Part shown: positions 33,262-60,086 of the stretch, piece after piece
Layout: each line of letters begins with the position of its first letter
Numbering within the stretch: the stretch's first letter is position 1
Source of the DNA: an uncultured Clostridia bacterium
GTDB lineage: Bacteria > Bacillota > Clostridia > TANB77 > CAG-508
DNA length: 64,000 bases
Direction of reading: 5' to 3'
Assembly (NCBI GenBank): GCA_934133165.1
Contig: CAKPAW010000001.1
Span: forward strand, 98,756-162,755
The notes under the pieces: generated by a model
The model's database searches: none
The model's input: the letters and a program-made list of their open reading frames with translations, nothing else
What the model was told of the DNA's origin: nothing
Translations under genes and position numbers: made by a program

Positions 33262-33308
33262 TAGGGACGGTCCTTTTTGTTCCGAAATCGGAACAGGAGG
33301 GACACTCC
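33262..33308 (+). repeat. 47-nt conserved intergenic element, copy 1 (TAGGGACGGTCCTTTTTGTTCCGAAATCGGAACAGGAGGGAC)
   Basis: About 85% identical to the reverse complement of 60041-60086. Contains the internal palindrome GTTCCGAAATCGGAAC and a direct GGGACGG/GGGAC repeat. Confidence 0.6.
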
Positions 33309-33370
33309 TTAATATTACCAAAACAAATAAAAATGAGATAGATTTTTTTAATTTCTATCTCATTTTTATT

Positions 33371-33676
33371 TTACTCACAATACTTGTCTAATATTGCCCA
33401 AATAATTTTGTGGTATCTTCTAATTTCTATAATCTTAGAGCCATCGTCACATTCGCAAGTTATGAAAGGTATATCCTTCTGGCTGTTTCTATCTTTATCT
33501 ATTGTTATAGAAATAAGATTTGGTATTACTTTAACCAATTTAGAAGAAATTTCATTATCATCTGAAAAAGATTTTTTTATGCTTTTCATCAACTCATAAA
33601 ACTCTTTCCGATCTATTTCTTTTATGTACTCTTTTCCATTTTGTTTCCAAATAAAAATAATTTCCTCTTTTTTCAT
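33371..33676 (-). CDS. Hypothetical small protein
   Basis: ATG at 33676 (MKKEEIIF) with a GGAGG RBS. No recognisable family. Confidence 0.4.
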   Translation of the reverse strand: MKKEEIIFIWKQNGKEYIKEIDRKEFYELMKSIKKSFSDDNEISSKLVKVIPNLISITIDKDRNSQKDIPFITCECDDGSKIIEIRRYHKIIWAILDKYCE

Positions 33677-33874
33677 TATATTTACCTCCTTTAATTGTTT
33701 GTTTTTTAGATAAACTTTGGAGATAAATATATGTCTCCGATATTTATCTAAAGACATATTTGTACTTTAAATTATTTTCATATTATAGCATGCTTTCTTT
33801 ATTTTATCAATAGTTAACAATATAATAGACGCTTTTACTAATATATAAGAATAAAAGCGTCTATATTTAATATA

Positions 33875-35014
33875 TTATAATATTTCACTTGTCATTGTGT
33901 TTAAAGTAGTTTTGCTACTCTGATTATTATCTTTTTGTTCATTCGTCTTAGTAACATTTGTATTAGTATTACTTGATTTTGTATTTGTAGTATTATTTAC
34001 TACAGAATTTTCTGTCACATTTTGCTTTATACTATTATCTATCGTATTAGTAGTAATATTACCTTTATTATCTCCTGTAGTTTCATTTGTAATATTGTTT
34101 GAAACTTCATTTTCTATAACATTACTTACAACATTAGTATTTGTCGTCTCATTTTTACTAGTATTATTTTTAGTATTTTCATTATCATTGTTTTCTTTTT
34201 TATTATCTTCATTTTTATATGTATGCCATGGATTTGATGAATCTGGATCTGTAGGATCCCAGTTTCTTAAATAATCTGGATAAGATGATATTTTTCTAGC
34301 ACTTGGTTTTCCTAGTGGTCCAGGATTTGAACTGCTATAAAATTCAACTTTTGTTCCTCTTGCACAATTATAGAAAATCCACTTTGCGTCTGCTACAGTT
34401 AAACGAATACAACCTGCTGAAGCATAAGTTCCTAATTTATCATATTCCCAATATTCTAGACTAGACTTATCTCCTCTTGTCAAATATGGAACTGAATGAA
34501 ATAATATATTTCCTTTAATTTGCGTACTATAATGTCCATATACATCTCCTTGAAGTCCTAGCCACTCCCATCTTGCTGGTATTGAATATACTCCAGAAGT
34601 TGGTGTAGCTACTCCTGTAGAACATACCATTGCTTTATATGGGACTGTATATTCTCCATTTTCATCTTGAGTATATATTGTAACTACTTGTGCTCCATAA
34701 TTTACCTTTATATAGTAAGGTAATGAACTATTTGTATTATTATTTTTGTTATTTGTTTTATCAATATCTTTGCTATCTTCTTTTTCAGTTTCATCTGTTT
34801 CTTTTTCTAATTCCTCTATACTCGCAAATTCTTCTACCTCTTCATTTACATTAATTAATATTTCTTCATTATTAAATTTTTCTTTTGCTTTAGAATTAGT
34901 TTCTTTCGTTTTATTTTTTATACATATTCCTATTATAGTTACTATTATTATAGCAATTATACCAATGCTTAATAATATTAAATTTTTTAAATCTTTTATT
35001 TTTCCTACATTCAT
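33875..35014 (-). CDS. L,D-transpeptidase (YkuD domain) with N-terminal membrane anchor and long Asn/Thr-rich C-terminal tail
   Basis: Catalytic HSVPYL...SAGCIRL motif. AGGGGAAT RBS. Confidence 0.75.
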   Translation of the reverse strand: MNVGKIKDLKNLILLSIGIIAIIIVTIIGICIKNKTKETNSKAKEKFNNEEILINVNEEVEEFASIEELEKETDETEKEDSKDIDKTNNKNNNTNSSLPYYIKVNYGAQVVTIYTQDENGEYTVPYKAMVCSTGVATPTSGVYSIPARWEWLGLQGDVYGHYSTQIKGNILFHSVPYLTRGDKSSLEYWEYDKLGTYASAGCIRLTVADAKWIFYNCARGTKVEFYSSSNPGPLGKPSARKISSYPDYLRNWDPTDPDSSNPWHTYKNEDNKKENNDNENTKNNTSKNETTNTNVVSNVIENEVSNNITNETTGDNKGNITTNTIDNSIKQNVTENSVVNNTTNTKSSNTNTNVTKTNEQKDNNQSSKTTLNTMTSEIL

Positions 35015-35172
35015 TTTAATATTCCCCTTAATTCTTATATCTTTTTTAATTTTATCACATATATTTTTTTATATCAATACCATTTACATAGTATTTTGAA
35101 ATTTACTTTTCTTAGTATTTTCAATGGTTTCAAAGTTTTTTTAATTTTTTTATATTTTTTTCAAAATAAGTA

Positions 35173-35201
35173 TTGACATTTATTTTAAAATCTTGTATAC
35201 T
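35173..35201 (+). promoter_or_regulatory. Sigma-A promoter of the tRNA-Val/Asp/Phe operon
   Basis: TTGACA (35173-35178), 17 nt, TATACT (35196-35201), about 20 nt upstream of tRNA-Val. Confidence 0.6.
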
Positions 35202-35222
35202 TAATCTCGTCGAAAGAAACAA

Positions 35223-35298
35223 GGTCGCTTAGCTCAGCTGGGAGAGCATCTGCCTTACAAGCAGGGGGTCATAGGTTCGAGCCCTATAGCGACCACCA
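35223..35298 (+). tRNA. tRNA-Val (anticodon TAC)
   Basis: Cloverleaf with acceptor GGTCGCT/AGCGACC, anticodon loop CTTACAA, GGTTCGAGCC T-arm and encoded CCA. Confidence 0.9.
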
Positions 35299-35317
35299 TT
35301 TTTTTTATTTAAAATTT

Positions 35318-35394
35318 GGCCTGGTAGTTCAGTTGGTTAGAACGCTAGCCTGTCACGCTAGAGGTCGACGGTTCGAGCCCGTTCCAGGTCGCCA
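35318..35394 (+). tRNA. tRNA-Asp (anticodon GTC)
   Basis: Anticodon loop CTGTCAC, T-arm GGTTCGAGCCC, encoded CCA. Confidence 0.9.
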
Positions 35395-35403
35395 TTTTTT
35401 TAT

Positions 35404-35479
35404 GCTTCGATAGCTCAGTTGGTAGAGCAAGGGACTGAAAATCCCTGTGTCAGTGGTTCGATTCCACTTCGAAGCACCA
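35404..35479 (+). tRNA. tRNA-Phe (anticodon GAA)
   Basis: Anticodon loop CTGAAAA, T-arm GGTTCGATTCC, encoded CCA. Confidence 0.9.
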
Positions 35480-35484
35480 ATAAA

Positions 35485-35522
35485 AAACAGCTATTTCAAT
35501 AGATTTAGCTGTTTTTATTTTT
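35485..35522 (+). terminator. Rho-independent terminator after the tRNA operon
   Basis: ACAGCT...AGCTGT stem followed by a T-run. Confidence 0.6.
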
Positions 35523-35710
35523 TATTCATTTTGTCTATTTTATCTTATTTTTTCTATCTAAAAAGTTGCCTATTTTATTTGCTATTTCTAATTATATAGT
35601 AAACAACGTTTTATAAACGCTTATCTAATGTTAAAATTTCATAAAACACTTCAGTATTTCTTACATTTTACATAAATAATCAAATTTTATAAGATTTTTT
35701 TCCTATTTTC

Positions 35711-35739
35711 TTGACTTTTGTTATTATTTGTATTAGAAT
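35711..35739 (+). promoter_or_regulatory. Candidate sigma-A promoter of rplM-rpsI (upstream of a roughly 115-nt leader)
   Basis: TTGACT, 17 nt, TAGAAT. Confidence 0.45.
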
Positions 35740-35855
35740 AATATAGCGTAATTATGAAATGTTACCTTTTATATATAAACTTCTCCCCGGTAGTTTAAGT
35801 ATAAAGTGGTTTCATATAAATAATATTATATAATGAATGGAGGGTATTTATTACC

Positions 35856-36293
35856 ATGAACAATACAACACACAGTGTAAAAAAGAATGAAATTGAAAGA
35901 AAATGGTATGTTTTAGATGCTGCTAACAAACCTTTAGGTAGAGTTGCAACTGAAGCTGCTAGATTATTAAGAGGAAAACACAAACCAACTTATACACCAA
36001 ATATGGATGTTGGAGATCACGTAATTATTATTAATTGTAAAGATGCTGTTTTAACAGGAAGAAAATTAGATCAAAAAGTTTACAGACATCATTCAGGATA
36101 TATTGGTGGAATGAAAGAAACATCTGCAAGAGTTATGATGGAAAACAAACCAGAACAAGCTATGATGCTTGCTGTAAAAGGAATGCTTCCACACAATAGT
36201 CTAGGAAGACAAATGGTAAAAAAATTAAGAGTATATGCTGGTAGCGAACATGAAAACATCGCTCAAAAACCAGAAGTTTGGGAGGTAAAATAA
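35856..36293 (+). CDS. rplM: 50S ribosomal protein L13
   Basis: [52 protein letters not shown]. Confidence 0.95.
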
Positions 36294-36294
36294 T

Positions 36295-36702
36295 ATGGCT
36301 AAAGCAAAATCAGTTAAATCAGTTTTCTATGGTACTGGTAGAAGAAAAAAATCTATTGCTAGAGTAAGACTTGTAGAAGGTACTGGAGTTATTACAATAA
36401 ACGGAAAAAGTATAGATGAATACTTTGGAACAGAAGTTTTAAAAACTATAGTAAGACAACCATTATCTGCAACAGAAACAACAGCTAAATATGATGTTAT
36501 TGCAAAAGTTCAAGGTGGAGGATTTACAGGTCAAGCTGGAGCTATCCGTCATGGTATCGCAAGAGCATTAAATGAAGCAAATAGTGAATTTAGACCAACA
36601 TTAAAATCTAATGGATACTTAACAAGAGATCCACGTATGAAAGAAAGAAAAAAATACGGTCTTAAAAAAGCTAGAAAAGCTCCACAATTTAGTAAAAGAT
36701 AA
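36295..36702 (+). CDS. rpsI: 30S ribosomal protein S9
   Basis: [15 protein letters not shown] ... C-terminal [17 protein letters not shown]. Confidence 0.95.
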
Positions 36703-36709
36703 AAAATAC

Positions 36710-36743
36710 AAACTCGGAATTATTTATATTCCGAGTTTTTTGT
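36710..36743. terminator. Bidirectional terminator after rpsI
   Basis: CTCGGAAT/ATTCCGAG stem followed by a T6 run. Confidence 0.65.
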
Positions 36744-37732
36744 TATTTTATATTTTCTAATTCTTCATATTTATTATGACTTTTCTCTATCTCATTTTTT
36801 GTGATGATATTTTCCTTGTAGCTTTTTTCTATCATTTCCTGTTTTTGCATTAATGGTGTCTTTGTATTAATTCCAAATTCTTCAAAATCTTCCATATCAT
36901 AATCTATTTCTCCATGTAACTTTGGATTGTTAATGTTATTTATATATTGTTTTCCATCAATTCCTGTTGTTAGTTCTTTTTTATTTGGAACTTTTGTAGG
37001 ATTTTTTCTTTCTTTTTCTTCTAATATAAATGAATCTCCATATAATTTTGCTCTTTCTCCTGTCAATTCTATATAACCTTTTGATAAAATTTCTTCTGCT
37101 AATTCTCTTCCTCCTTGCATTTTTAAAAGCCAATATCCTGCCATTGGTGCTACTTTATTACCAAATTCTTTATCTTTTATGAATTCACCGCGTGAATTTG
37201 TTATTTCCTCTCTTAAAAAGAATTGTCTGAATGTTGTATCTACTAAATACATTTTATCTTCAACTTTTTCTGAAGTTTTAATAGGAATATTGACTGTTAT
37301 AAAAGCATGTCTCCCTGTATCTTCTCCTATTGTTGGATTTACATTACATACATTTGGATTTAATCCCATATTTCTTAATGTTTGTGCTGTAATTGCTTGA
37401 CCAAATCCACAGCAACCTAATAAACTTTCTTCTTGTAAATTTTTGTCTTTAGCTAGTTCATTTCTTGCATTTTGTACAGTCCATTTTAAAATTTCTTCTG
37501 CCTCTTGCTCTGTTATTCCTTGATTTTTATTTTCTTTATTACCTTCTAATACTTTCTTTAGTTTTCCTTCTGTATTAGCCAATTTCATTAATCTTAATTC
37601 TGAATACTCTTCCATATTTGGCTTTGTATCTATTATAAACCTCTTTCCTTCTTTGTATCCTAATATATTTCTTATTTTTTGTTTTAATTTATCATATATA
37701 GTTACTTTCTTTGGTAAATTCACATTTTTCAT
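36743..37732 (-). CDS. Hypothetical protein with a candidate papain-like Cys/His core (GCCGFGQ ... GRHAFITVN ... D)
   Basis: Hydrophilic, K/E-rich ends. The central LLGCCGFGQAITAQTLRNMGL...DTGRHAFITVNI...YLVDTTF is arranged like a Cys-His-Asp peptidase/transglutaminase-like fold. No confident family assignment. Confidence 0.4.
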   Translation of the reverse strand: MKNVNLPKKVTIYDKLKQKIRNILGYKEGKRFIIDTKPNMEEYSELRLMKLANTEGKLKKVLEGNKENKNQGITEQEAEEILKWTVQNARNELAKDKNLQEESLLGCCGFGQAITAQTLRNMGLNPNVCNVNPTIGEDTGRHAFITVNIPIKTSEKVEDKMYLVDTTFRQFFLREEITNSRGEFIKDKEFGNKVAPMAGYWLLKMQGGRELAEEILSKGYIELTGERAKLYGDSFILEEKERKNPTKVPNKKELTTGIDGKQYINNINNPKLHGEIDYDMEDFEEFGINTKTPLMQKQEMIEKSYKENIITKNEIEKSHNKYEELENIK

Positions 37733-37854
37733 ATTTTCACTCTTCGTTTATTATATTTGTCTATATTAAGTGTAATACATTTTATAAAAAAACACAATAT
37801 AAAAAAGCATAGAAATCAATTTTTGATTGTCTACACTTTTCTATTATTAAATAT

Positions 37855-38562
37855 TTATTTTATAGTTTCTAACAAATTATTTGTTGTAACTCCATCAAAG
37901 TTATAATAAGTATTTGGTGTCGTTCCCAATATTACCGCTTCTGCTAATAATATTTGATTTGATATTTTTTCTTCCATTGTGTTAAATGGAGTTAATATAA
38001 TCACATTGCAATCTACTTGCAAATACATTTTGTGTAATGTCTGATTAATTCCCGCTGATGAAAATTCTGATCTTAAGTCTGTGTCCAAATTTCCTATTGT
38101 TGACATTTTAATATTTACATTTGGTCCTTTCCCTGAAAGTAATCTACTTCCTGTAAAACTACCTAATCTAATTGAAAAGTTGCTATTATCTGCTTTATTA
38201 AATTCTTCTTGTATTTTTATTGCTACGTCTGAAATTATTTCGTTTATAGGAATTACATTTGCTTTTATCATAGTTATATTTCCATTGTTGTCTTTTGATA
38301 TTGTACATAAATCCTCATATTTATACTTGCTCATTACTATAGTTGCTTGTTCATTTGAAATTTTTGTAGATATACTTTTTGCCATATTAATACATTGCTT
38401 ATCTACGATTGGCCTAACTGCATATATAATTCCATTTGCTGTTACTATTGCTATACACATAATAAAGACTATTTTAGTTATTTTTATTAATTTTTCATTA
38501 TTCTTATTTTTGTTAAAACTTTTAGGCAAGTTTATTCGTTTTCTAGAATATATCTTATCCAT
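37855..38562 (-). CDS. Sporulation protein YunB-like
   Basis: N-terminal TM anchor, approximately 235 aa, YunB-like core. Lies in a sporulation gene block. Confidence 0.45.
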   Translation of the reverse strand: MDKIYSRKRINLPKSFNKNKNNEKLIKITKIVFIMCIAIVTANGIIYAVRPIVDKQCINMAKSISTKISNEQATIVMSKYKYEDLCTISKDNNGNITMIKANVIPINEIISDVAIKIQEEFNKADNSNFSIRLGSFTGSRLLSGKGPNVNIKMSTIGNLDTDLRSEFSSAGINQTLHKMYLQVDCNVIILTPFNTMEEKISNQILLAEAVILGTTPNTYYNFDGVTTNNLLETIK

Positions 38563-38577
38563 GATATTTCCTTTAAT

Positions 38578-40107
38578 TTAAATTGCTATTGGAATAAATA
38601 ATTGCTCTCCAATATTTATTTTGTTCTCGTCCTCTATTCCATTTATATTAGCTATGTTTGAAACTGTACTATGAAATTTCTTTGCTATATTCCATAATGT
38701 ATCTCCTGGCTTTACAAAATATATTATTAAACTATATCTTTCTGTGTTTCTTGCTTCATCTACGTTTATTTCTTGTATTACATTTATATCTCTATGGTTA
38801 GACAAATTTATAGTAAAGCCTAAATCTATTTTCATATCTATACTTTCATCTGGCATTACAATAAAGTCTTGTAGTTCTACTTCTACACTAGTTTCAATTT
38901 GTGATGTAGCTGTTACTCCCATGCAATCCATATTAAAGTTAAATGGTAGCACTAGATTTTTTGTTCCCATTCTGCTACTATTATCTGCATCAAATAAAAA
39001 GTTTAGTTCTACTTCTCCCTCAAACATTATTCTATTATTCATTATTGTTTGATTCGTAATTGTTGGCTTTACATCTACATCATATATTTTTCTGTTTTCT
39101 ATTTCTGCTATAAATTGTTTTTCTCTTATATTGCAAGTATCTTTTAAAATTTCTTTTTGAGAAATTGCTCTTATTTGTTTTTGCTTATATGTCAAGTCTA
39201 CACTTGGACTATATAAATCTTCTATTATATTTACTTGTCTTGTTTGATATACCATGCAATTTATCTCTAATTCTGCTTCTACATATATCGAATGTTCTTC
39301 TATATTATTTGGTTTTATTACTAGATTTCTTATTTGATATTTCACATCACATAAATTTTCGTCTGTTACATCTGGCATATCTATAAATCCCATTACAGGT
39401 ATTAGATTGCAAGTAGAACATATTCTATTATCTTCTGTTCTATATAATATTTTTACACATGCATCTGCCTTTACCAGTACTTTGTTATAACTTATTTTTG
39501 TCTCTCTATTAATTATATTAATATTTACCTTCATAATTTCTGCTAAATTATCTGCAGAATCTATTACTAAAGTATCTTTAGCATAGACTTTTGTAACGCC
39601 TGTTCCTAATAATGAATTTAGTTTCAAATTATTCTCTAAAAGTTGAATATCTTTAATATCATTCATTTCTTTTACAAATTCTACATCTTCATTTGAATCA
39701 ATTTTTAGTTCAATATCTATTATTGCTTTTACATTTACTTTTCTTCCGTTTATAACTCTACATTCTATAGCTTTTAAGTCTACATTGTCGTCTAACAACA
39801 TACCTGTTTTTACTACATCAAAATCTATAGTTTGTGAAAATTCTAAAGTTGTGTTTAAACTTCTTACACTTGATTCTTCATCATCTGCTAAATACATAAT
39901 ATATGCATTTATACAGCCATCTAGTCTAACCTTTCCATCCATCACTTCTTTTTTATAGATGCAAATTGTTCCATTTGTACTAATTGTATTTAATATATCT
40001 GGTTTTATATCAGGAACTACAAAATCCTCCTCTACCATGGCTGTATCTGTTTTTTGTCCTATTATTTGATTAACACATAATGTCTCTTTACTTGCTGTGA
40101 CTTGCAT
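38578..40107 (-). CDS. SipL-like spore-coat morphogenetic protein (DUF3794/SPOCS repeats plus C-terminal LysM)
   Basis: C-terminal LysM (YFVKPGDTLWNIAKKFHSTVSNIANINGI). sipL-veg-yabG gene order as in C. difficile. ATG at 40107 with a GGAGG RBS. Confidence 0.55.
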   Translation of the reverse strand: MQVTASKETLCVNQIIGQKTDTAMVEEDFVVPDIKPDILNTISTNGTICIYKKEVMDGKVRLDGCINAYIMYLADDEESSVRSLNTTLEFSQTIDFDVVKTGMLLDDNVDLKAIECRVINGRKVNVKAIIDIELKIDSNEDVEFVKEMNDIKDIQLLENNLKLNSLLGTGVTKVYAKDTLVIDSADNLAEIMKVNINIINRETKISYNKVLVKADACVKILYRTEDNRICSTCNLIPVMGFIDMPDVTDENLCDVKYQIRNLVIKPNNIEEHSIYVEAELEINCMVYQTRQVNIIEDLYSPSVDLTYKQKQIRAISQKEILKDTCNIREKQFIAEIENRKIYDVDVKPTITNQTIMNNRIMFEGEVELNFLFDADNSSRMGTKNLVLPFNFNMDCMGVTATSQIETSVEVELQDFIVMPDESIDMKIDLGFTINLSNHRDINVIQEINVDEARNTERYSLIIYFVKPGDTLWNIAKKFHSTVSNIANINGIEDENKINIGEQLFIPIAI

Positions 40108-40227
40108 GACAATATACCTCCTTAATTTTTTTATTACTAATGTATATTGCTTGGGCACAAAAAAAATTCCTAAAAATTTAGGAATTTTTTATTATTTTAT
40201 ATTTTTTACTTTTGTTCTTCTTTTATG

Positions 40228-40518
40228 TTATGCTTTTACACTAACAACTGGTGGAATTAATGGTGAATAACTTTCTCCATCAAATACCTCTACTTCTACT
40301 GTTCTTGTTAAAACATCTGTATAACTATAGGTAACATTTCTTTCGTTTTCCTCGTATTTAACTACGAAAATGTTTGGATAAGCCTTTTCTATTGTAGCTT
40401 CTTTTTCGAATGTTTTACTTCTTCCTAAAGAACCTTTAACAATAATTTTTTGACCTACTTTATCTCCAATATCTGTTTTTAGACTTGCTATATCACTTTT
40501 ACAAATCATGTTCATCAC
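40228..40518 (-). CDS. veg: Veg (DUF1021) protein
   Basis: VTYSYTDVLTRTVEVEV matches B. subtilis Veg (VSYSYADILTETVEL). Confidence 0.8.
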   Translation of the reverse strand: MMNMICKSDIASLKTDIGDKVGQKIIVKGSLGRSKTFEKEATIEKAYPNIFVVKYEENERNVTYSYTDVLTRTVEVEVFDGESYSPLIPPVVSVKA

Positions 40519-40674
40519 CTACTTCTTTAAGATGAACTTATTCTATCATGAAAGGCGCAAAATGTCAAAAGCAAAAGCTTTATGTCGTTTCTTGTTTTTA
40601 GCCTATATCAAAGGTTTTGGAGTTTTATTACATTTGTATTACAATATAATTACTATTATATTACATTGATATTT

Positions 40675-51406: not shown

Positions 51407-51465
51407 ATGTAATGTTAAGACTTTTTAAATCTTAACATATTTTTTTATATTGTGCAAGTATTTTT

Positions 51466-51945: not shown

Positions 51946-52009
51946 AAGTGCACTCCTTTTATGATATTGATATATACATTAAAAGGCACTTTTAATTAGT
52001 GCCTCTATA

Positions 52010-52465: not shown

Positions 52466-52495
52466 TTTACTTCCTCCTATATATTGGGCACAAAA

Positions 52496-52957: not shown

Positions 52958-53092
52958 TTCAAAACCTCCTAAAATTATCGTCCTTCGTAATCTTTTTAAT
53001 TATGCTATAAGTATCTAACTTTTTTATTTTATTGTCAATAGTTTTTTAAAATTGTAATGTTAATTTAATTTCTTTGTAATATTTTTGTAATA

Positions 53093-54328: not shown

Positions 54329-55245
54329 TTGTTTATCTCCTCCAAGATAATATGAATATTTTCAGATATTGGATTTTCTCCATTTAACCATATTGTTTTT
54401 TTGTTTTTTCTAAACCATGTAAGCTGTCTTTTTGCATATCTTCTTGACTCTAATTTTATTTTTTCTATTGCCTCTTCTTTTGTTAATTTTCCTTCTATAT
54501 ATTCTACTATTTCTTTGTATCCTAATGCTTGTAGTGATGTAGGAAGCTTTTCATATTTTTCATAAATATTTTTTACTTCTTCTATCAAACCTTTTTCGAC
54601 CATAATATCTACTCTTTTATTTATTCTTTCATATAAAATTTCTCTATTCATATCTATTGCAAACATCTTATAATCAAATTCTGGTTCTTTTCTTGATTCT
54701 TTTTCTAATTCTGTTTTTGTCTTTCCTGTTTGATGGTATATTTCTAACACTCTTAAAATTCTTTTTCTATCATTTGGGCTTATCTTTTCCATTGCTGTTG
54801 GATCTATTTTTTTTGCTTCTTCATATAGTTTTTCTAATCCTTCTTTTTCCATTAAGTCCTCAAGATGTTTTCTATATTGAAGGTCCACTTCTAATTCTAG
54901 ATATTCTATTTCATAAATAAGTGAATCTATGTATAAACCTGTTCCCCCTATTACTATAGGAATTTTTCCTTTTTCTACTATTTCTCTTATACACTTTTTA
55001 GCATCTTTTTTATAATCTGCAACACTATATCTTACTTCTGGACTTATAATATCTAACATATAATGTTTAATATTTTGTTTTTCATCTTCATCTGGCTTAG
55101 CTGTTCCTATATCCATTTCTTTATATATTTGCATTGAATCTGCTGATACTATTTCTCCATTTATTGCTTTTGCAAGTTCAATAGATAGTGCTGTTTTTCC
55201 AGATGCAGTAGGTCCACCTATAACTATTACTTTAGCTTTTTGCAT
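54325..55245 (-). CDS. miaA: tRNA dimethylallyltransferase
   Basis: VIGGPTASGKTALS P-loop, full-length match to MiaA. Confidence 0.9.
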   Translation of the reverse strand: MQKAKVIVIGGPTASGKTALSIELAKAINGEIVSADSMQIYKEMDIGTAKPDEDEKQNIKHYMLDIISPEVRYSVADYKKDAKKCIREIVEKGKIPIVIGGTGLYIDSLIYEIEYLELEVDLQYRKHLEDLMEKEGLEKLYEEAKKIDPTAMEKISPNDRKRILRVLEIYHQTGKTKTELEKESRKEPEFDYKMFAIDMNREILYERINKRVDIMVEKGLIEEVKNIYEKYEKLPTSLQALGYKEIVEYIEGKLTKEEAIEKIKLESRRYAKRQLTWFRKNKKTIWLNGENPISENIHIILEEINK

Positions 55246-55256
55246 ATTCTTGCTCC

Positions 55257-55817
55257 TTAAATTTGATTTGTTGTATTAGTATTGCTCTTATTTAAACTCA
55301 CTCTATTTGAATTTATTTCATTATTATCTATTGTATTTAATAATTCTTCATTATTAACTCTATCCTCTGTTATTTGCTCGTTTTGTACTATTGTATTTGT
55401 TTTATTTTCACCTATATTTTTAACATTTTTTTGCATATTCACAAAATAGAAATACTCAACTACTAAAACTATAATAAGTAATATTACTAATGTACTAAGT
55501 TTTTTTGATAATTCTTGTACCTTTATTTGTTTGTTTTTAAATTTTCTATATTGTGATGCAAAATATGGTATAAATAAAATTACATTTATTGGTACAAATA
55601 AATATGTAACAAAATTTTTCATTGCTTCATGTACAGTTGAATCTATTCCAAATCCACTTATCCAATATACAATTGAAATTAAAATATACATAGTTGCCAC
55701 ACTAATTGCAAGAAATACTATTATTTCTTTTTTAGGCATTTTTTTAATAAATTGATAAGTTAAAGCTAATGCAACTATATTTGCAACTGCTGTAGCTATT
55801 ATTAACCATATATCCAT
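55257..55817 (-). CDS. Hypothetical membrane protein with Asn-rich tail
   Basis: Four to five TM helices. No recognisable family. Confidence 0.4.
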   Translation of the reverse strand: MDIWLIIATAVANIVALALTYQFIKKMPKKEIIVFLAISVATMYILISIVYWISGFGIDSTVHEAMKNFVTYLFVPINVILFIPYFASQYRKFKNKQIKVQELSKKLSTLVILLIIVLVVEYFYFVNMQKNVKNIGENKTNTIVQNEQITEDRVNNEELLNTIDNNEINSNRVSLNKSNTNTTNQI

Positions 55818-55823
55818 ATTTTT

Positions 55824-58112
55824 CTATCTCCTTGAAAATTTCTTTTCTATATCATTTTTTGTCATTTTTATTGCTGTTGGTCTTCCATGTGGGCAAGTAA
55901 ATGGATTTGGAAGTCTTAGCAATTCTTCCATTAAACTATCTACTTCTTCTTTTGTAAGAGCCATATGAGCTTTTACAGCTGCTTTGCAAGCAACTGTTGC
56001 AATAAATTTTTCTTCTTTTTCTTGCTTTGCTGTTCTTGCTACTGTATTTATTTCATCTAGTGTCTCTAAGAATAATTCTTTAGTATCTAGTTCTAAACAT
56101 ATATTAGGAACTCCTGTTAATTTGATAGTGTTTTCTCCAAATTCTTCTAAAACAAATCCTGCTTTTTCAAACATATCTATATTTTCTTTTGCTATATCCA
56201 TTTCTTTATGTGTTAAATTAATAATATCTGGTAATAACATCATTTGAGAATCTTTTTCTCCATTTTTATAGTAATTTTCTTTTACTTTTTCATACATTAT
56301 TCTTTCATGAGCTGCATGTTGATCTATCATATATAATTCATTTCTTAATTCTATAATTATATATGTTGAAAAAGCAATTCCAATAAATTTATATGCAGGA
56401 ATAGCATTTTGTTCTTTTTCAAACATTGATATATTTTCACCTGTTGCTATTTCTGCATCTATTTTGTATTCTTCTGGTTCTTCTTTTATTTCTGCTTCTT
56501 TTTCTGGTGCTTTTCCAAAAACAGATGTATACATATCTTCAAATTTTTCTTCATTTGTTTCGTATTTATCATTTTGTTCACTAACTTCTCTAGCTATTTC
56601 TTGCTCTTGGTTAATTTTGTTAGTATCTATTATTTGTGTCTCATCTATTTCCATGTTTTTAGCTAGTTCTTGTTTCATTTCATCTGTTATTACTATTGTT
56701 TCATCACTAAAGTTTGCTTCTTTAGGTTCTATTGTTTCTAATATTTTAGTATTGTCTTCTTCACTTTCTTTAACTGGTTTTGTAACTTCTATATTTTCTT
56801 TTTCAGTATTTAACTCATTTGAACTTTCTTTAAATTCTTCAACAGATTTTTTCATCTCTGCCATCTTGTCCATTATATTTTCGAAACTATTTATGTTTTG
56901 TTTTGTATTATTTTCTTGTTTTCTTGCTTCGTATATGTCTCTCATAATATTGGGTTCATTTGAGTTTTCTATTTCTTCTTTTTCTACTTTTTCCTCTTTT
57001 TTTGATAAAAATCTTGAAAACAAACCTTTAGATTTTTCTGGTACTTGTATATTTTCTAATACGTTACTTTTTATTTCTATTTGATTGTCTTTTACCTCTT
57101 TTTCTTCTTGAACTCCTACCAAATCATTTTTTAATAAAGTATCTTTTATTGCATGATATACTGCTTTAAAAACTTTTTGTTCTTCTTCGAAACGCACTTC
57201 TAGTTTTGCTGGATGAACATTAACATCTACTTTATGTGGATCAATTTCAATATTCAAAACTAAAAATCCAAATTTTCCAACTGTAATCATTCCTTTATAT
57301 GCCTGTTCTGCACTACTTGTCAATGTTTTATCTTTTACATATCTTTTATTTACAAAGAATAATTGGTTTGAACGATTTGAACGAGCAATAATAGGTCTTC
57401 CAACTACACCTGTTATTTTAATATCTTCATATTCATAATTAACTTCTAATATATTCTCTGTAATTTCTTTTCCATAAATACCATATATAACATTTTTAAT
57501 GTCACCATTTCCAGAAGTTTGAATAATAGTTTTTCCTGAGCTTATCAATTTTATTGCTATTTCTGGATGTATTAATGCTATTCTAGTCATAACATCTTCT
57601 ATATAGCCTGACTCTGTAAAGTCTTTTTTTAGGAATTTATAACGAACTGGAGTATTATAAAAAAGATTTTCTATAGTAATACTTGTTCCATCTGGGCAAC
57701 CTGTTTCTTCATTTTTTAGAATATTTCCACCCTCTACAATTACTTCATGTCCAATTTCTTGATCTCTAGTTTTAGATTTCATACTTACTTTAGCTATTGC
57801 CGCAATACTTGCTAAAGCCTCACCTCTAAACCCCATAGATTTTACAGTTTCTAAGTCACTTGCTACTCTTATTTTGCTTGTTGCATGTCTCTCAAATGCA
57901 ATTTCCATATCATCTGGCATAATTCCTTTTCCATTGTCTGTTACACGAATGTAAGAAATTCCGCCATTTTTTATTTCTACGCTAATATTATTTGCTCCTG
58001 CATCTATTGAATTTTCTACTAATTCTTTTACTACAGATGCTGGCCTTTCAATTACTTCACCTGCTGCTATTTTATTTATTGTTAAGTCATCTAATAATAC
58101 TATATTTCCCAC
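55824..58112 (-). CDS. mutL: DNA mismatch repair protein MutL (with long E/K-rich linker)
   Basis: INKIAAGEVIERPASVVKELVENSIDAG GHKL ATPase motif and C-terminal dimerisation domain. GTG start at 58112 with a GGAGGAAG RBS; the track ORF is extended upstream. Confidence 0.9.
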   Translation of the reverse strand: MGNIVLLDDLTINKIAAGEVIERPASVVKELVENSIDAGANNISVEIKNGGISYIRVTDNGKGIMPDDMEIAFERHATSKIRVASDLETVKSMGFRGEALASIAAIAKVSMKSKTRDQEIGHEVIVEGGNILKNEETGCPDGTSITIENLFYNTPVRYKFLKKDFTESGYIEDVMTRIALIHPEIAIKLISSGKTIIQTSGNGDIKNVIYGIYGKEITENILEVNYEYEDIKITGVVGRPIIARSNRSNQLFFVNKRYVKDKTLTSSAEQAYKGMITVGKFGFLVLNIEIDPHKVDVNVHPAKLEVRFEEEQKVFKAVYHAIKDTLLKNDLVGVQEEKEVKDNQIEIKSNVLENIQVPEKSKGLFSRFLSKKEEKVEKEEIENSNEPNIMRDIYEARKQENNTKQNINSFENIMDKMAEMKKSVEEFKESSNELNTEKENIEVTKPVKESEEDNTKILETIEPKEANFSDETIVITDEMKQELAKNMEIDETQIIDTNKINQEQEIAREVSEQNDKYETNEEKFEDMYTSVFGKAPEKEAEIKEEPEEYKIDAEIATGENISMFEKEQNAIPAYKFIGIAFSTYIIIELRNELYMIDQHAAHERIMYEKVKENYYKNGEKDSQMMLLPDIINLTHKEMDIAKENIDMFEKAGFVLEEFGENTIKLTGVPNICLELDTKELFLETLDEINTVARTAKQEKEEKFIATVACKAAVKAHMALTKEEVDSLMEELLRLPNPFTCPHGRPTAIKMTKNDIEKKFSRR

Positions 58113-58338
58113 GTTTCTTCCTCCGTTTTTTATTTTTATATACTTTTTTAGAATTATATCATTAAATGTTTGAATTTGTATAGTTTTTTCAAAAAAATAG
58201 TAAAAAAATATTATCTCATTAAATATCTGTAACAATTTACTTTTTTGAAACATTGTAACACTTTTTTATTTTTAGAATAGTATATACCATACAAAAGAAC
58301 AAACGACGTAACAAAAATTTATATAGGAGGTACTTATA

Positions 58339-58449
58339 ATGAGAAATTGTTGTTGTAACAGTGAAATACTTTGGTTCATTATCCTATTTTTACTACTTTT
58401 CTGTGGCTGTGGAAACAATAACTGCGGATGTGGCAATGGATGTTGCTAG
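58339..58449 (+). CDS. Tiny Cys/Gly-rich transmembrane peptide, 36 aa (YjcZ/tiny-TM-like)
   Basis: MRNCCCNSEILWFIILFLLLFCGCGNNNCGCGNGCC. AGGAGG RBS 6 nt upstream. Not in the ORF track (under 60 aa). Confidence 0.55.
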   Translation: MRNCCCNSEILWFIILFLLLFCGCGNNNCGCGNGCC

Positions 58450-58506
58450 TTTCTCTTAGGTAAATGTCAAAGGTTCAAAGTTTACTTTTGAAAGGAGGGA
58501 AATATT

Positions 58507-58635
58507 ATGCCAGAAAATAGAGGTTGTGGATGTGGTTTCGGTAATGGATGTGACTGCATTTGGATTATAATCATATTAATATTAATATTCTGTTGTTGTG
58601 GAAATAACAACTGTGGCGGTTGCGGATGCTGCTAG
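58507..58635 (+). CDS. Tiny Cys/Gly-rich transmembrane peptide, 42 aa (paralog)
   Basis: MPENRGCGCGFGNGCDCIWIIIILILIFCCCGNNNCGGCGCC. AAGGAGGG RBS. Hairpin terminator at about 58655-58685. Confidence 0.55.
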   Translation: MPENRGCGCGFGNGCDCIWIIIILILIFCCCGNNNCGGCGCC

Positions 58636-58689
58636 AATTTAATTCTTCAAACATAAAAAGCGATAGAAGTTTTCTATCGCTTTTATTAT

Positions 58690-59956
58690 TTAATTCATTC
58701 CTGCTGTATACCCTGTAGAATATGCAATTTGAAGATTGAAGCCCCCTGTATACGCATCTACATCAATTATTTCTCCTGCAAAATATAATCCCTCTACAAT
58801 TTTAGATTCCATTGTTTTTGGGTTTATTTCCTTTATGCTAATTCCTCCAGCTGTAACTATTGCCTCTTCTATTGGTCTGAAACCTTTTATTTCTATTTGA
58901 AATCCTTTCAATGTTTTTAATAATTCTAATCTTTCTTCTTTTGTGACAGAATTTATTTTCTTTTCTCCATCTAGTTTTGCAAATTCTAAAACTGGCAAAA
59001 TCATTTTTGATGGTAGTAAATCTTGAAGTCCATTTTGTAAATCTTTATTTTTATATTTTTCAAAATCTCTTTTTATTCTATTGTCTAGTTTTGTTTCATC
59101 TAAAGCTGGTTTTAAATCTATTTTTAATGCAATTTTGTTCTCTCTAAATTTTTCTTCTATATTTTTGTATCTTAATAAATGTGCCGATGAGCTAAGTATT
59201 GTAGGTCCTGATACTCCAAAATGTGTAAATAGCATTTCTCCAAAATCTTCATAAATAGTCTTGTTAGTTTCTTTATCTATTAACGTTATTCCTACATTTT
59301 TTAAACTTAACCCTTGCATTTGTTTGCAAAGTTTTAATGACTTTTCTGATACTGTTAGTGGTACAAGTGATGGTTTTATTTTTTCTATGCTATGACCTAA
59401 TTCTTTTACCATTTCATAGCCATCTCCCGTAGAACCTGTTGCAGGATAGCTTTTTCCTCCTGTTGTTAAAATAATTTTGTCTGCCTTTATTTTTTCTCCA
59501 TTTTCCAAAATAACCCCTATAGCTCTTTTTTCCCTATCAACTTCTTCTACTAAAATTTTCTTCACTTTCGTATTGGTTTTTATCTGGACTTTTAAGCTAT
59601 TTAATTTTCTTATAAGTGCATTTAATACATCTTGTGAATGATCAGACACAGGGAATATTCTATTTCCTCTTTCTTCCTTTACTTCTATATGTTGGTCTTT
59701 TAATAAATTTATTATATCTTCATTTGTACAATTTTGAAAACTACTATATAAAAATCTTCCATTACCAGGAATGTTTGAAATAAATTCTTCCATAGGAATA
59801 GAAGATGTAATATTACACCTTCCTTTTCCTGTTATTAATAATTTTCTTCCTAAGCTATTCATTTTTTCAAGTATTGTTACACTATTTCCACTTTCAGCAC
59901 TACTAATTGCTGCCATCATTCCTGCTGGTCCACCGACCTATAACAATTACTTTCAT
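58690..59956 (-). pseudogene. BaiN/HI0933-like NAD(P)/FAD-dependent oxidoreductase interrupted by a 1-nt insertion in the GxGxxG motif
   Basis: ATG at 59956 (RBS AAGGAGG) reads MKVIVIGRWTSRNDGSN*. The main ORF (MMAAISSAESG..., 58690-59919) is in another frame. Deleting the G at 59935 gives MKVIVIGGGPAGMMAAISSAESG, a canonical Rossmann dinucleotide-binding N-terminus. Confidence 0.6.
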
Positions 59957-60040
59957 TTTTCCTCCTTATGTTAGTCCCAAACTAAATTAAAAAAGAATTA
60001 ATTTTTTAGTTTTGTTACTATTTTTCAATTAAATTTTTAA

Positions 60041-60086
60041 GTCCGTCCCTTGTGTTACGAAATCGGAACAAAAAGGTCCGTCCCTA
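60041..60086 (-). repeat. 47-nt conserved element, copy 2 (inverted relative to copy 1), overlapping the 3' end of the mtnN-like ORF
   Basis: Reverse complement TAGGGACGGACCTTTTTGTTCCGATTTCGTAACACAAGGGACGGAC matches 33262-33308. Confidence 0.6.

What the first reader, a model, noticed from the sequence alone, without database searches (positions are those of the whole stretch)
33262..60086. 47-nt conserved element present twice in opposite orientations (33262-33308 and 60041-60086)
TAGGGACGG(T/A)CCTTTTTGTTCCGA(AA/TT)TCG(G/T)AACA..AGGGAC(A/G)(C/G)(T/A)C occurs upstream of rpsO and, inverted, at the 3' end of the mtnN-like gene, where it supplies the last roughly 10 codons of that ORF. It contains a perfect GTTCCGA-N2-TCGGAAC palindrome flanked by a direct GGGACGG repeat and is GC-rich against a very AT-rich background. 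Candidates are a small dispersed repeat or MITE-like fragment, a structured small RNA, or a regulator-binding site.
Basis: seen in the sequence. Interest (0 to 1): 0.5.

Follow-up and report, generated by a model that had tools for sequence, protein, structure and literature searches.

The report
REP-type palindromic repeat in gut Clostridia
The 47-base element is a small hairpin-forming repeat of the REP type: in related bacteria the same design brackets the gene for the enzyme (a RAYT) thought to copy such repeats, so it is a new member of a known kind, not a new regulator.

Summary
Two copies, 37/47 identical, lie in opposite orientation at 33262-33308 (+) and 60041-60086 (-). None is expected by chance.

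Each copy is a head-to-tail doublet of a GGGAC-centred hairpin unit. It can fold as one long hairpin. A third, single unit (41633..41599, -) is the terminator of a peptidase gene.

The same design recurs at 8 or more further sites in AT-rich uncultured Clostridia genome bins. In L100 and L154 inverted copies bracket a RAYT (REP-associated tyrosine transposase) gene.

Related single units share the apex GGGACRGTYC on stems that covary. They flank about half of 80 metagenomic RAYT loci, + upstream and - downstream. Acetoanaerobium noterae has 35 units in 300 kb, 91% outside ORFs.

Copy 2 lies in a ~111-nt insertion absent from a more distant orthologous locus. It replaced the native MtnN C-terminus. 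A G-to-T change in the window breaks its palindrome and creates the stop codon.

Best reading: non-autonomous REP/REPIN-like elements, probably old. No RAYT was found in the window's 64 kb or in the pieces of related genome bins that I fetched, so activity in this genome is not shown.

Novelty: a new member of a known kind. The odd points are a conserved apex instead of a GTAG tag, and the head-to-tail doublet.

The parts
33256..33313 (+). REP doublet, copy 1. It has a 5' arm AAACA, unit 1 apex GGGACGGTCC (33264-33273), T5, arm GTTCCG, loop AAAT, arm CGGAAC and unit 2 apex GGGACACTCC (33299-33308). It folds as one long hairpin over 33260-33313. Its GGGACGG strand is antisense to the neighbouring genes.
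   Evidence: Sequence. RNA fold -32.8 kcal/mol, z -6.7. ssDNA fold -11.9 kcal/mol, z -3.4. Conserved in the conspecific loci L001, L003, L005, L010, L017 and L023.
60040..60092 (-). REP doublet, copy 2, decayed. It has a 5' arm GAACA (60092..60088), unit 1 apex GGGACGGACC (60084..60075), T5 + GTTCC, GATTTC, arm GTAACA (60058..60053, G-to-T relative to orthologues) and unit 2 apex GGGACGGACT (60049..60040). It is in sense orientation within the 3' end of the mtnN-like gene.
   Evidence: Weak fold: RNA -16.8 kcal/mol, ssDNA -5.5 kcal/mol with z -0.6. Orthologues keep GGAACA and read on to ...EHKGRT.
60055..60057 (-). TAA stop codon of the mtnN-like ORF. It was created inside the REP arm by the GGAACA-to-GTAACA change.
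   Evidence: ORF end. Comparison with the 255-aa homologues P0241 and P0243-P0247 and with L152 DNA.
59968..60093 (-). The 126 nt between the two sequence blocks shared with orthologue L150, where only 15 nt separate them. This gives a net insertion of about 111 nt (the REP doublet plus about 72 nt of AT-rich spacer carrying a new ribosome-binding site) and replaced the native MtnN C-terminus.
   Evidence: blastn block ends; alignment; protein C-termini.
41599..41633 (-). Single REP-like unit used as an intrinsic terminator after the S41 peptidase gene: GTGGCAATA-GGGACGCCCC-TTATTGCCAC followed by T7.
   Evidence: 15-pair stem plus T-run. ssDNA fold -12.2 kcal/mol, z -5.9. The same apex variant GGGACGCCCC occurs in family members L015, L026 and L029.
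33213..33241 (-). rpsO promoter (-35 TTGCAT at 33241..33236, 17-nt spacer, -10 TATTAT at 33218..33213). It is not part of the element and is given to fix the position of copy 1, which starts 21 nt upstream of the -35.
   Evidence: Hexamers conserved in all 11 aligned loci. This is a consensus-based inference, not an experimental mapping.
33325..33372 (.). Bidirectional terminator hairpin of the upstream 101-aa ORF. It is not part of the element. It separates copy 1 from upstream transcription.
   Evidence: Sequence; alignment.

Best explanation
The element is a REP (repetitive extragenic palindrome) of a family found in Clostridia. Here it takes a doublet form that behaves like a REPIN, that is, two hairpin units that together fold into one long hairpin.

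**Anatomy.** The basic unit is a hairpin: 5' arm, 2-3 nt, GGGAC(G/A)G(T/A)(C/T)C, a T-run, then the 3' arm. The GGGAC decamer sits at the tip and the arms vary freely but stay complementary. In the AT-rich gut lineage of this window, two units are joined head to tail: GGGACG[GT]TCC, arm, loop, complementary arm, GGGACACTCC.

**Mechanism (inferred).** Such elements are non-autonomous. They are thought to be recognised as single-stranded DNA hairpins and cut and rejoined by a RAYT, a single-copy HUH/Y1 tyrosine transposase whose own gene is bracketed by inverted copies. This mechanism rests on published work on E. coli TnpA_REP. It was not tested for this family.

**What is shown here.**
- The repeat family exists.
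- The hairpin is supported by covariation.
- Inverted copies bracket RAYT genes in relatives.
- Copy 2 lies in an insertion relative to an orthologous empty site.

**What is inferred.**
- A RAYT mobilised these two particular copies.
- The copies are old and probably no longer mobile. Copy 2 is shared by species whose MtnN proteins are 78-100% identical to the window's, and it has decayed.

**Local consequences.**
- Copy 2 rewrote the last 10 codons of MtnN. It separates mtnN from the next gene and places a weak hairpin at the end of the mtnN coding sequence in the mRNA.
- Copy 1 sits outside the rpsO transcript, between a terminator and the promoter, and is most likely neutral there.
- The single unit at 41.6 kb serves as an intrinsic terminator.
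For: **1. The repeat is real and dispersed.**
- The window holds two doublets plus one single unit.
- The doublet occurs at 10 independent sites: two here and eight in the AT-rich Clostridia genome bins L024 (two sites), L028, L033 and L034 (two sites) and flanking the RAYT gene in metagenomic contig L100 (two).
- L033 is 95% identical to the L017/L023 copy over 58 nt.

**2. Link to RAYT genes.**
- In L100 (27% G+C) the RAYT ORF 3001-3762 is flanked upstream (+) and downstream (-) by TTCAACAGGGACGTTCCTTTTAGTTCCACTTTGGAACTTTAGGGACACTCC, which has the window's architecture.
- L154 shows the same, with arms TTAAATTTC/GAAATTTA.
- L055-L057 carry GGGACGGTCCTTTTTGTCC units around the RAYT P0113/P0093.
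- In A. noterae the RAYT gene has units at 421778+, 421797+ and 422685-.
- Among 80 metagenomic RAYT loci, 38/74 have a + unit within 250 nt upstream (6 have a - unit) and 29/67 have a - unit at the gene end (2 have a + unit). Both flanks are occupied in 28/61. Unit density is 1.0/kb near the gene and 0.2/kb elsewhere.

**3. The protein is RAYT-like.**
- Pfam Y1_Tnp, E 8e-15.
- The best or only NCBIfam hit is REP_Tyr_transpos.
- The HUH motif and the catalytic Tyr are invariant.
- The family profile hits only 4ER8, E. coli TnpA_REP, in the PDB.

**4. The hairpin covaries.** In 190 distinct units the outer stem is paired in 70% of cells, against 41 +/- 1.5% when arms are shuffled between units. 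There are 115 different arms. G.T wobbles pair only on the GGGACGG strand.

**5. The units are extragenic.** In A. noterae 32 of 35 units lie outside ORFs that cover 88% of the sequence.

**6. Copy 2 is an insertion.** The L150 orthologue has 15 nt where the window has 126 nt. MtnN homologues at or below 76% identity end ...EWIKRKEETCK without the repeat-encoded tail.
Against: - No RAYT gene was found in the 64-kb window or in the 8-kb pieces of related genome bins (tblastn). The defining association is therefore shown only in other genomes. The closest case, L100, shares the design but not the exact arm sequences.
- Copy number in this lineage looks low. The strict pattern gave 2-4 hits per genome bin, far below classical REP families.
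- The RAYT proteins score 59-74 bits against NCBIfam REP_Tyr_transpos, below its 80-bit cut-off.
- There is no invariant GTAG or CGTC tag. Most AT-rich copies have (N)TAG before GGGAC, but this varies.
- About half of the sampled RAYT loci show no GGGAC unit.
- Copy 2 has persisted at one site across species. That shows stability, not mobility.
- At the rpsO site the absence of the repeat in L008 and L002 is part of a larger replaced segment, not a clean empty site.
Confidence: 0.8

Rival explanations
1. The element is a host RNA feature, either an intrinsic terminator or a 3' stem-loop that protects mRNA. On this view the GGGAC apex is conserved for an RNA-level reason, and the association with RAYT genes is secondary.
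For: - The single unit at 41633..41599 is a textbook terminator, with 15 pairs and then T7.
- Many copies start at or within a few bases of a stop codon in sense orientation (L024 twice; A. noterae; copy 2).
- G.U pairs make the GGGACGG strand fold better as RNA: -32.8 against -24.9 kcal/mol.
Against: - Neither doublet in the window is followed by a U-tract.
- Copy 1 is antisense to both neighbouring genes and lies between a terminator and a promoter, so it is probably not transcribed in the favourable orientation. No + strand promoter with 9 or more of 12 matches lies upstream of it.
- Oriented inverted copies bracket RAYT genes, which a pure terminator role does not explain.
- This rival is compatible with the best explanation as a secondary, co-opted use.
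Confidence: 0.1
2. The element is a double-stranded DNA operator for a dimeric regulator or a partition-type protein, because the central TGTTCCGA-AA-TCGGAACA is an 18-bp palindrome.
For: Copy 1 has a perfect palindrome just upstream of the rpsO promoter. I recalled a superficial likeness of the outer bases to parS-type sites; this was not tested.
Against: - Other copies lie at 3' ends of genes or between convergent genes, and copy 2 lies inside a coding sequence.
- The palindrome arms change between lineages while staying complementary (TTTTAGTTCC/GGAACTTTA, TTAAATTTC/GAAATTTA). A fixed protein-DNA code would not allow that.
- Wobble pairs break the symmetry of the duplex.
- Copy 2 has lost the palindrome.
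Confidence: 0.03
3. The element is a structured small RNA or riboswitch-like element, for example a guanidine-II (mini-ykkC) type with two ACGR-loop hairpins.
For: Each unit can form GGG-ACGG-(U/C)CC, which resembles ACGR tetraloop hairpins, and there are two per element. This resemblance is from memory and is only a lead.
Against: - There is no match to mini-ykkC or to any Rfam family, even at E up to 10 in 351-nt searches. Nothing reaches gathering scores.
- Unit 2 has ACAC or a G.A-closed loop.
- No transporter or guanidine-related gene lies downstream.
- The orientation is opposite at the two loci.
Confidence: 0.02
4. The element is a classical MITE, a deletion derivative of a DDE-transposase insertion sequence, or a footprint of two abutted terminal inverted repeats.
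For: Perfectly palindromic tail-to-tail versions exist (L012, L027, L036). These first suggested back-to-back terminal repeats.
Against: - No DDE transposase lies next to any copy.
- No target-site duplication is recognisable at the one clean insertion.
- The two GGGAC motifs are in direct, not inverted, orientation.
- The only gene consistently bracketed by copies is a Y1/HUH transposase.
Confidence: 0.03

Closest known systems
REP/BIME elements and their RAYT (TnpA_REP) in E. coli. The REPtron concept is from Ton-Hoang et al. 2012 and the structure 4ER8 from Messing et al. 2012; both are cited from my own knowledge, and the PDB hit is.
   Same: - Short imperfect palindromes, mostly extragenic and often just after stop codons.
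- They occur as singles, tandems and inverted pairs.
- Inverted copies bracket a single Y1/HUH transposase gene.
- The family profile's only PDB match is 4ER8.
   Different: - There is no unpaired GTAG tag. The conserved part is a decamer at the hairpin tip (GGGACRGTYC) on freely covarying stems.
- The RAYT is about 250-270 aa with an extra C-terminal HTH-like region, and it falls below NCBIfam's RAYT cut-off.
- Copy number is far lower in the window's lineage.
- The host is Clostridia, not Proteobacteria.
REPINs of Pseudomonas (Bertels and Rainey 2011, PMC3116915; RAYT groups in Bertels et al. 2017, PMC5581495)
   Same: - A two-unit element that folds into one long hairpin.
- It is thought to be the mobilised unit.
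- It is vertically inherited and long-lived.
- It is associated with a single-copy RAYT.
- The 2017 paper notes that Group 1 RAYTs are 'also found in the Clostridia', with only modestly repeated flanking 16-mers.
   Different: - REPINs are two REPs in inverted orientation. Here the two GGGAC motifs are in direct (head-to-tail) orientation, and the long hairpin arises because each motif is itself half-palindromic.
- Populations are tens per genome or fewer, not hundreds.
- I did not determine which RAYT group this clade belongs to.
GTAG- and CGTC-tagged REP superfamilies (Di Nocera et al. 2013, PMC3733652)
   Same: - Stem-loop repeats with 8-13-bp stems and 4-5-nt loops.
- They form dimers.
- Some units are intragenic or overlap gene ends.
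- Some act as terminators.
   Different: - That survey's text never mentions Clostridia or Firmicutes.
- Head-to-tail dimers are described there as rare, but they are the standard form here.
- CGTC occurs here only inside the apex on the complementary strand (CCGTCCC), not as a terminal tag.
IS200/IS605-derived palindrome-associated elements
   Same: A Y1/HUH transposase recognises subterminal hairpins in single-stranded DNA.
   Different: - NCBIfam's IS200 model scores much lower than its RAYT model (26 against 74 bits).
- The gene sits in one conserved genomic context across samples.
- The two flanks are the same hairpin inverted, not distinct left and right ends.

Membership tests
REP / REPIN (RAYT-associated repetitive extragenic palindromes) | Short imperfect palindrome able to form a hairpin | tested here: met
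   - Copy 1 folds at -32.8 kcal/mol as RNA (z -6.7) and -11.9 kcal/mol as ssDNA (z -3.4).
- The long hairpin and the unit-1 hairpin are each about 80% paired across 10 doublets.
- In 190 units the stems covary: 70% paired against 41% in the shuffle control.
- Copy 2 has decayed (z -0.6).
REP / REPIN (RAYT-associated repetitive extragenic palindromes) | Multiple dispersed, mainly extragenic copies in a genome | tested here: inconclusive
   - The feature is met for the family. A. noterae has 35 units in 300 kb, 91% outside ORFs, and at least 25 BLAST places in the whole record.
- For the window's own lineage I found only 2 doublets plus 1 single unit in 64 kb, and 2-4 strict-pattern hits per genome bin.
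- The whole genome was not available.
REP / REPIN (RAYT-associated repetitive extragenic palindromes) | Inverted copies bracket a RAYT gene in the same genome (REPtron) | not testable with these tools
   - The feature is met in other genomes: L100 and L154 for the doublet form; L052-L057 and A. noterae for single units; and 28/61 metagenomic RAYT loci.
- In the window's genome there is no RAYT in the 64 kb or in L001-L044.
REP / REPIN (RAYT-associated repetitive extragenic palindromes) | Conserved unpaired GTAG (or CGTC) tetranucleotide at one end | tested here: not met
   The bases before GGGAC are TTA, ATA, GTA, CTA, CAA or TAA in the AT-rich copies, and CTG, AAG, ACG and others elsewhere. 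The invariant part is the apex GGGACRGTYC.
REP / REPIN (RAYT-associated repetitive extragenic palindromes) | The associated protein is a Y1/HUH transposase of the RAYT type, not IS200 TnpA | tested here: met
   - Pfam Y1_Tnp above its cut-off.
- NCBIfam REP_Tyr_transpos is the best or only hit, but at 59-74 bits it is below the 80-bit cut-off. The IS200 model scores 26 bits.
- HxH and the catalytic Y are invariant.
- The only PDB hit is 4ER8.
- This counts as met with the caveat that the clade is divergent.
REP / REPIN (RAYT-associated repetitive extragenic palindromes) | Evidence of insertion or mobility (presence/absence at orthologous sites) | tested here: met
   - mtnN site: 126 nt in the window against 15 nt in L150. 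The repeat-encoded tail occurs only in homologues of 78% identity or more.
- The rpsO site is not a clean empty site.
- Recent transposition is not shown.
Classical MITE (DDE insertion-sequence derivative) | Terminal inverted repeats matching an insertion sequence, plus a target-site duplication | tested here: not met
   No duplication is visible at the L150/window junction. The GGGAC motifs are direct repeats. No DDE transposase lies near any copy.
Guanidine-II riboswitch (mini-ykkC, RF01068) | Two ACGR-tetraloop hairpins matching the Rfam model, in a 5' UTR | tested here: not met
   No hit at E up to 10 in either 351-nt region. The location is not a 5' UTR of a relevant gene.
Intrinsic (Rho-independent) terminator | G+C-rich hairpin directly followed by a U-tract, downstream of a gene in sense orientation | tested here: not met
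   Not met by the two doublets, which have no T-run after the hairpin. Met by the single unit at 41633..41599.

The most novel reading that the evidence does not exclude
This clade of RAYTs, found mainly in Clostridia, may recognise its repeats through a conserved 10-nt hairpin tip (GGGACRGTYC) rather than through the unpaired GTAG tag used by the studied proteobacterial enzymes. That would leave the stems free to drift and would allow a head-to-tail doublet to serve as the mobile unit. If so, this is a distinct recognition mode for REP-type elements. It operates in abundant uncultured gut Clostridia, where the repeats have been built into gene ends (the MtnN C-terminus, RAYT C-termini) and into terminators.
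Probability: 0.3. Interest if true: 0.5.

Novelty: new member of a known kind. Interest (0 to 1): 0.35.

Why it matters
REP/RAYT systems have been studied almost entirely in Proteobacteria. The REP survey I searched (Di Nocera et al. 2013) never mentions Firmicutes or Clostridia. Bertels et al. 2017 mention Clostridia only in passing, for Group 1 RAYTs.

This finding ties a recognisable repeat, with a simple signature (GGGACRGTYC at a hairpin tip), to a large RAYT clade. That clade has 572 homologues at E of 1e-10 or better for one query and 833 at 1e-20 or better for another. The carriers include common human-gut and rumen Clostridia.

Practical value:
- It explains odd G+C-rich islands, extended or recoded C-termini and some terminators in these AT-rich genomes.
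- It warns annotators that such tails are repeat-derived.
- It offers A. noterae, which is cultured, as a carrier in which RAYT function could be tested.

It does not reveal a new kind of system.

Tried and rejected
- **Rfam.** The whole window at gathering scores gave only four tRNAs. Permissive scans of both loci gave only chance-level hits, such as snoRNA, miRNA and SurA models far below their thresholds.
- **Back-to-back terminal repeats of a transposon.** I considered this after finding perfect palindromes in L012, L027 and L036, and a block shared by L018, L019 and L032 that starts exactly at the motif. The shared block turned out to be the 5' region and coding sequence of an EAL-domain gene, not a mobile element.
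- **Group II intron link.** L021 has intron fragments 350 nt away. This is a class-C-like insertion after a terminator and is unrelated to the element.
- **Other ideas weighed from the sequence and from memory, and dropped for lack of fit.** These were LexA/Cheo box, parS, integron attC, DNA uptake sequence, CsrA sponge, SECIS/PYLIS-like recoding signal and a conserved peptide reading. None was formally tested beyond what is stated here.
- **Phage and plasmid collections.** No phage hit and no viral-contig hit. The only useful 'plasmid' hit was the mislabelled A. noterae replicon.
- **RAYT in the window's own lineage.** tblastn with seven RAYT queries against the window and L001-L044 found nothing. 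Look-ups of the prevalent gut RAYTs P0123, P0220 and P0137 gave related but not identical repeats.
- **Covariation on the 10 doublets alone.** This was too weak to choose between the long hairpin and the unit-1 hairpin, since both are about 80% paired. One compensatory change supports each.
- **Literature.** A search for RAYT and Clostridium gave nothing specific.

Full report
**1. The observation**

- Copy 1 reads TAGGGACGGTCCTTTTTGTTCCGAAATCGGAACAGGAGGGACACTCC on the + strand at 33262-33308.
- Copy 2 reads TAGGGACGGACCTTTTTGTTCCGATTTCGTAACACAAGGGACGGACT on the - strand at 60086-60040.

They share 37 of 47 positions. The 22-mer GGGACGGNCCTTTTTGTTCCGA, searched with up to three mismatches, occurs exactly twice in the window. 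It occurred in none of 100 dinucleotide-preserving shuffles. The window has 26.7% G+C, so the element is a G+C-rich island.

All neighbouring genes are on the - strand.

Copy 1 lies between the bidirectional terminator of a 101-aa ORF (33325-33372) and the rpsO promoter. The promoter has -35 TTGCAT at 33241..33236 and -10 TATTAT at 33218..33213, conserved in 11 loci. The GGGACGG strand of copy 1 is antisense to these genes.

Copy 2 is in sense orientation. It provides the last ten codons (IGTDLFVPIS) and the stop codon of the mtnN-like ORF.

**2. Anatomy**

Comparison with other copies showed that the element is a doublet of a smaller unit.

The unit is a hairpin with these parts, in order:
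- a 5' arm (GAACA here);
- 2-3 nt, often nTA;
- GGGACGG(T/A)CC;
- TTTTT;
- a 3' arm (TGTTC).

In the window the 3' arm of unit 1 is followed by a short loop. Then comes a second 5' arm (GGAACA), a second GGGAC motif (GGGACACTCC in copy 1) and no second 3' arm.

The middle arm can therefore pair in two ways. It can pair leftwards, giving the unit-1 hairpin with GGGAC at the tip.

Fold energies:
- Copy 1 folds into the long hairpin at -32.8 kcal/mol as RNA (z -6.7) and -11.9 kcal/mol as ssDNA (z -3.4).
- The complementary strand of copy 1 folds less well, because several pairs are G.T wobbles.
- Copy 2 has decayed: RNA -16.8 kcal/mol, ssDNA -5.5 kcal/mol, z -0.6.

A scan for the GGGAC core found a third member in the window. 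It is GTGGCAATA-GGGACGCCCC-TTATTGCCAC followed by T7, at 41633..41599 on the - strand. It has the same apex on an unrelated stem and is the intrinsic terminator of the S41 peptidase gene.

**3. Copies elsewhere**

Some are chance singletons in unrelated phyla. The rest are in uncultured Clostridia.

The AT-rich genome bins carry the full doublet. These are L017 and L023 (the same rpsO site), L024 (two copies), L028, L033 and L034 (two copies). L027 and L036 carry tail-to-tail palindromic versions.

The window is about 97% identical to L017 (uncultured Clostridium sp. UMGS1612) over 8 kb.

In L024 each of two copies begins at the stop codon of one of two convergent genes, in sense orientation.

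Bins with higher G+C (RUG095 and others) have GGGACG(A/C)CCC-TTTTT-GTTCCG preceded by one to five repeats of the 5' arm.

**4. The link to a transposase**

A BLAST search of copy 1 against the plasmid collection hit a 2.63-Mb record of Acetoanaerobium noterae. The record is labelled a plasmid but is chromosome-sized. A query made of its own units found at least 25 places in that record.

I fetched 300 kb of it. It holds 35 units of the form AATCA-nnA-GGGACGGTTC-TTTTTGATT. They occur as singles, tandems and inverted pairs. 32 of the 35 lie outside ORFs of 100 aa or more, although such ORFs cover 88% of the DNA.

One ORF there (record 421881-422696) has these properties:
- It matches Pfam Y1_Tnp (E 8e-15).
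- Its best NCBIfam hit is REP-associated tyrosine transposase, at 73.7 bits against a cut-off of 80. The IS200 model scores 26 bits.
- It is flanked by two + units upstream and one - unit at its 3' end.

Its homologues number 572 at E of 1e-10 or better. Several are named 'REP element-mobilizing transposase RayT' by their sources. Some have C-termini that are translations of the repeat, such as QKEPS, KRTVP or KGRSFLS.

Contexts of several homologues show the same layout:
- L052-L054 have inverted GGGACGGTTC hairpins on new stems.
- L055-L057 have GGGACGGTCC-TTTTTGTCC, the window's apex and T-run, on both sides of the gene.

A metagenome scan with a 40-sequence alignment of these proteins returned 80 loci.
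- 38 of 74 loci with upstream flank have a + unit within 250 nt upstream. Only 6 have a - unit there.
- 29 of 67 have a - unit at the gene end. Only 2 have a + unit there.
- 28 of 61 have both.
- Unit density is five times higher around the gene than elsewhere in the same loci.

The decisive cases are two AT-rich contigs.
- In L100 (27% G+C, from a 197-kb contig) the RAYT ORF 3001-3762 is preceded by TTCAACA-GGGACGTTCC-TTTTAGTTCC-ACTTT-GGAACTTTA-GGGACACTCC. It is followed by the inverted copy of the same doublet, which also encodes its last residues, KECP.
- In L154 (26% G+C) the doublet is GGGACGTTCC-TTAAATTTC-ATTTT-GAAATTTA-GGGACACTCC.

So the two-motif design of the window's element, with its characteristic second motif GGGACACTCC, is the form that brackets RAYT genes in this lineage. 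The central arms covary between lineages.

The profile of the protein family hits only one PDB entry, 4ER8, the E. coli TnpA_REP bound to a REP. The HxH motif and the catalytic tyrosine are invariant.

**5. The hairpin is real**

I collected 190 distinct 36-mers centred on the apex and analysed them in one fixed register.
- Outer-stem positions are paired in 70% of cells.
- When arms are exchanged between units the figure is 41 +/- 1.5%, with a maximum of 45% in 500 shuffles.
- In shifted registers it is 35-40%.
- There are 115 different 6-nt arms and five or six pair types per position.

The apex is nearly constant. Wobble pairs form only on the GGGACGG strand. This fits a hairpin read on one strand, either ssDNA or RNA, and does not fit a duplex operator.

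On the ten doublets alone, the long hairpin and the unit-1 hairpin are each about 80% paired, and one compensatory change supports each. I cannot say which fold matters.

**6. History of the two copies**

*Copy 2.* MtnN homologues with 83-100% identity carry the repeat-encoded tail ...TIGTDLFVPISEHKGRT and are 255 aa long. One homologue at 78% identity reads the same repeat in another frame. Those at 76% identity or less end ...EWIKRKEETCK and lack it.

At the DNA level, the orthologue L150 (82% nt identity) has 15 nt between the blocks that flank the site. The window has 126 nt there. The net insertion is about 111 nt: the doublet plus an AT-rich spacer carrying a new ribosome-binding site.

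In the window, a G-to-T change in the arm (GGAACA to GTAACA) both breaks the palindrome and creates the TAA stop. This shortens the protein to 249 aa.

Copy 2 is therefore an old, vertically inherited and decaying insertion.

*Copy 1.* It is conserved in the conspecific loci L001, L003, L005, L010, L017 and L023. The sequence block shared with close relatives (L008 at 96%, L002 at 93%) ends at 33228-33241, at the promoter. Upstream of that point those relatives carry quite different genes. The repeat thus sits about 20 nt from a synteny break next to a tRNA cluster. This is not a clean empty site.

**7. Mechanism and its standing**

Shown here:
- a repeat family exists;
- the hairpin covaries;
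- the units are mostly extragenic;
- oriented inverted copies bracket RAYT genes;
- one copy is an insertion that recoded a gene end.

Inferred from published work on E. coli TnpA_REP and Pseudomonas REPINs:
- the RAYT recognises the hairpin in single-stranded DNA and cleaves and rejoins next to it;
- the doublet is the mobilised unit.

Not shown:
- a RAYT in this genome;
- any recent movement.

No RAYT was found in the window or in the fetched pieces of related genome bins.

Local effects are inferences.
- Copy 1 is outside the rpsO transcript and is probably neutral.
- Copy 2 places a weak hairpin at the end of the mtnN coding sequence in the mRNA and separates two formerly abutting genes.
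- The single unit at 41.6 kb acts as a terminator.

**8. Comparison with what is known, and novelty**

The element works like a REP/REPIN and passes most membership tests. It departs in these ways:
- it has no GTAG or CGTC tag;
- its conserved part is a hairpin tip;
- its dimers are head to tail;
- its RAYT is longer and divergent;
- its copy number is low.

The survey by Di Nocera et al. 2013 never mentions Firmicutes or Clostridia in its text. Bertels et al. 2017 note only that Group 1 RAYTs also occur in Clostridia, with modestly repeated flanking 16-mers.

I rate it a new member of a known kind, of moderate interest.

Noticed in passing
window 59905-59956 (- strand), the start of the HI0933-like flavoprotein gene; also L152 and L150: There is an apparent +1 frameshift inside the Rossmann motif. 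ATG AAA GTA ATT GTT ATA GGT CGG TGG ACC ... reads MKVIVIGRWTSRNDGSN*. Skipping the C of GGT-C-GGT-GGA-CCA restores MKVIVIG-GGPAGMMAAISS. The same extra base is present in two independently assembled orthologues whose neighbouring MtnN is 87% and 75% identical to the window's, so it is not an assembly error. GGU-CGG-U, with CGG likely a rare codon at 27% G+C (not checked), resembles a Ty3-type programmed +1 site. Gene callers instead start at MMAAISS, which would remove the FAD-binding loop.
   Followed up: partly
window 33114-33205 (- strand): The rpsO 5' leader is almost invariant across 11 loci from several species. It matches no Rfam family at gathering scores. It is probably an S15 autoregulatory leader of a type not in Rfam for this lineage.
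   Followed up: no
window 58482-58635: Small ORFs lie between mutL and the flavoprotein gene. One (58507..58635, +) is rich in Cys and Gly: MPENRGCGCGFGNGCDC...CCCGNNNCGGCGCC. I did not examine it.
   Followed up: no
L046-L051 (A. noterae NZ_CP154629.1, 200-500 kb): The record is labelled 'plasmid pTPELB2' but is 2.63 Mb long. All 35 repeat units in the 300 kb I sampled lie within 341-424 kb, around the RAYT gene at 421.9 kb, and none lies in the other 218 kb. A longer repeat of about 60-80 nt that includes the last 26 codons of the RAYT gene is itself dispersed.
   Followed up: partly
P0001-P0240 (RAYT homologues): About a dozen RAYT proteins end in peptides that are translations of their own flanking repeat in one of three frames (QKEPS, KRTVP, KNRP, KGRSFLS, KECP). 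The repeat therefore commonly overlaps the 3' end of the gene.
   Followed up: partly
L008 1-2800, compared with window 33228-35155: A close relative, 96% identical across rpsO-pnp, has the segment between the tRNA cluster and the rpsO promoter replaced by an integrase gene, a DUF2726 gene and others. This is a variable island next to the tRNA genes, and REP copy 1 lies about 20 nt from its boundary.
   Followed up: partly
L021 900-1150: Group II intron fragments (RF01998, RF02001) lie directly after a terminator whose loop contains GGGACGG, in the RUG095 genome bin. This looks like a class-C-type insertion after a terminator.
   Followed up: no
window 33309-33317: TAATATTAC, the geminivirus/circovirus origin nonanucleotide, directly follows copy 1. 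It is TAATATTGC in L017 and is not in a loop. It is almost certainly chance in an AT-rich genome.
   Followed up: no
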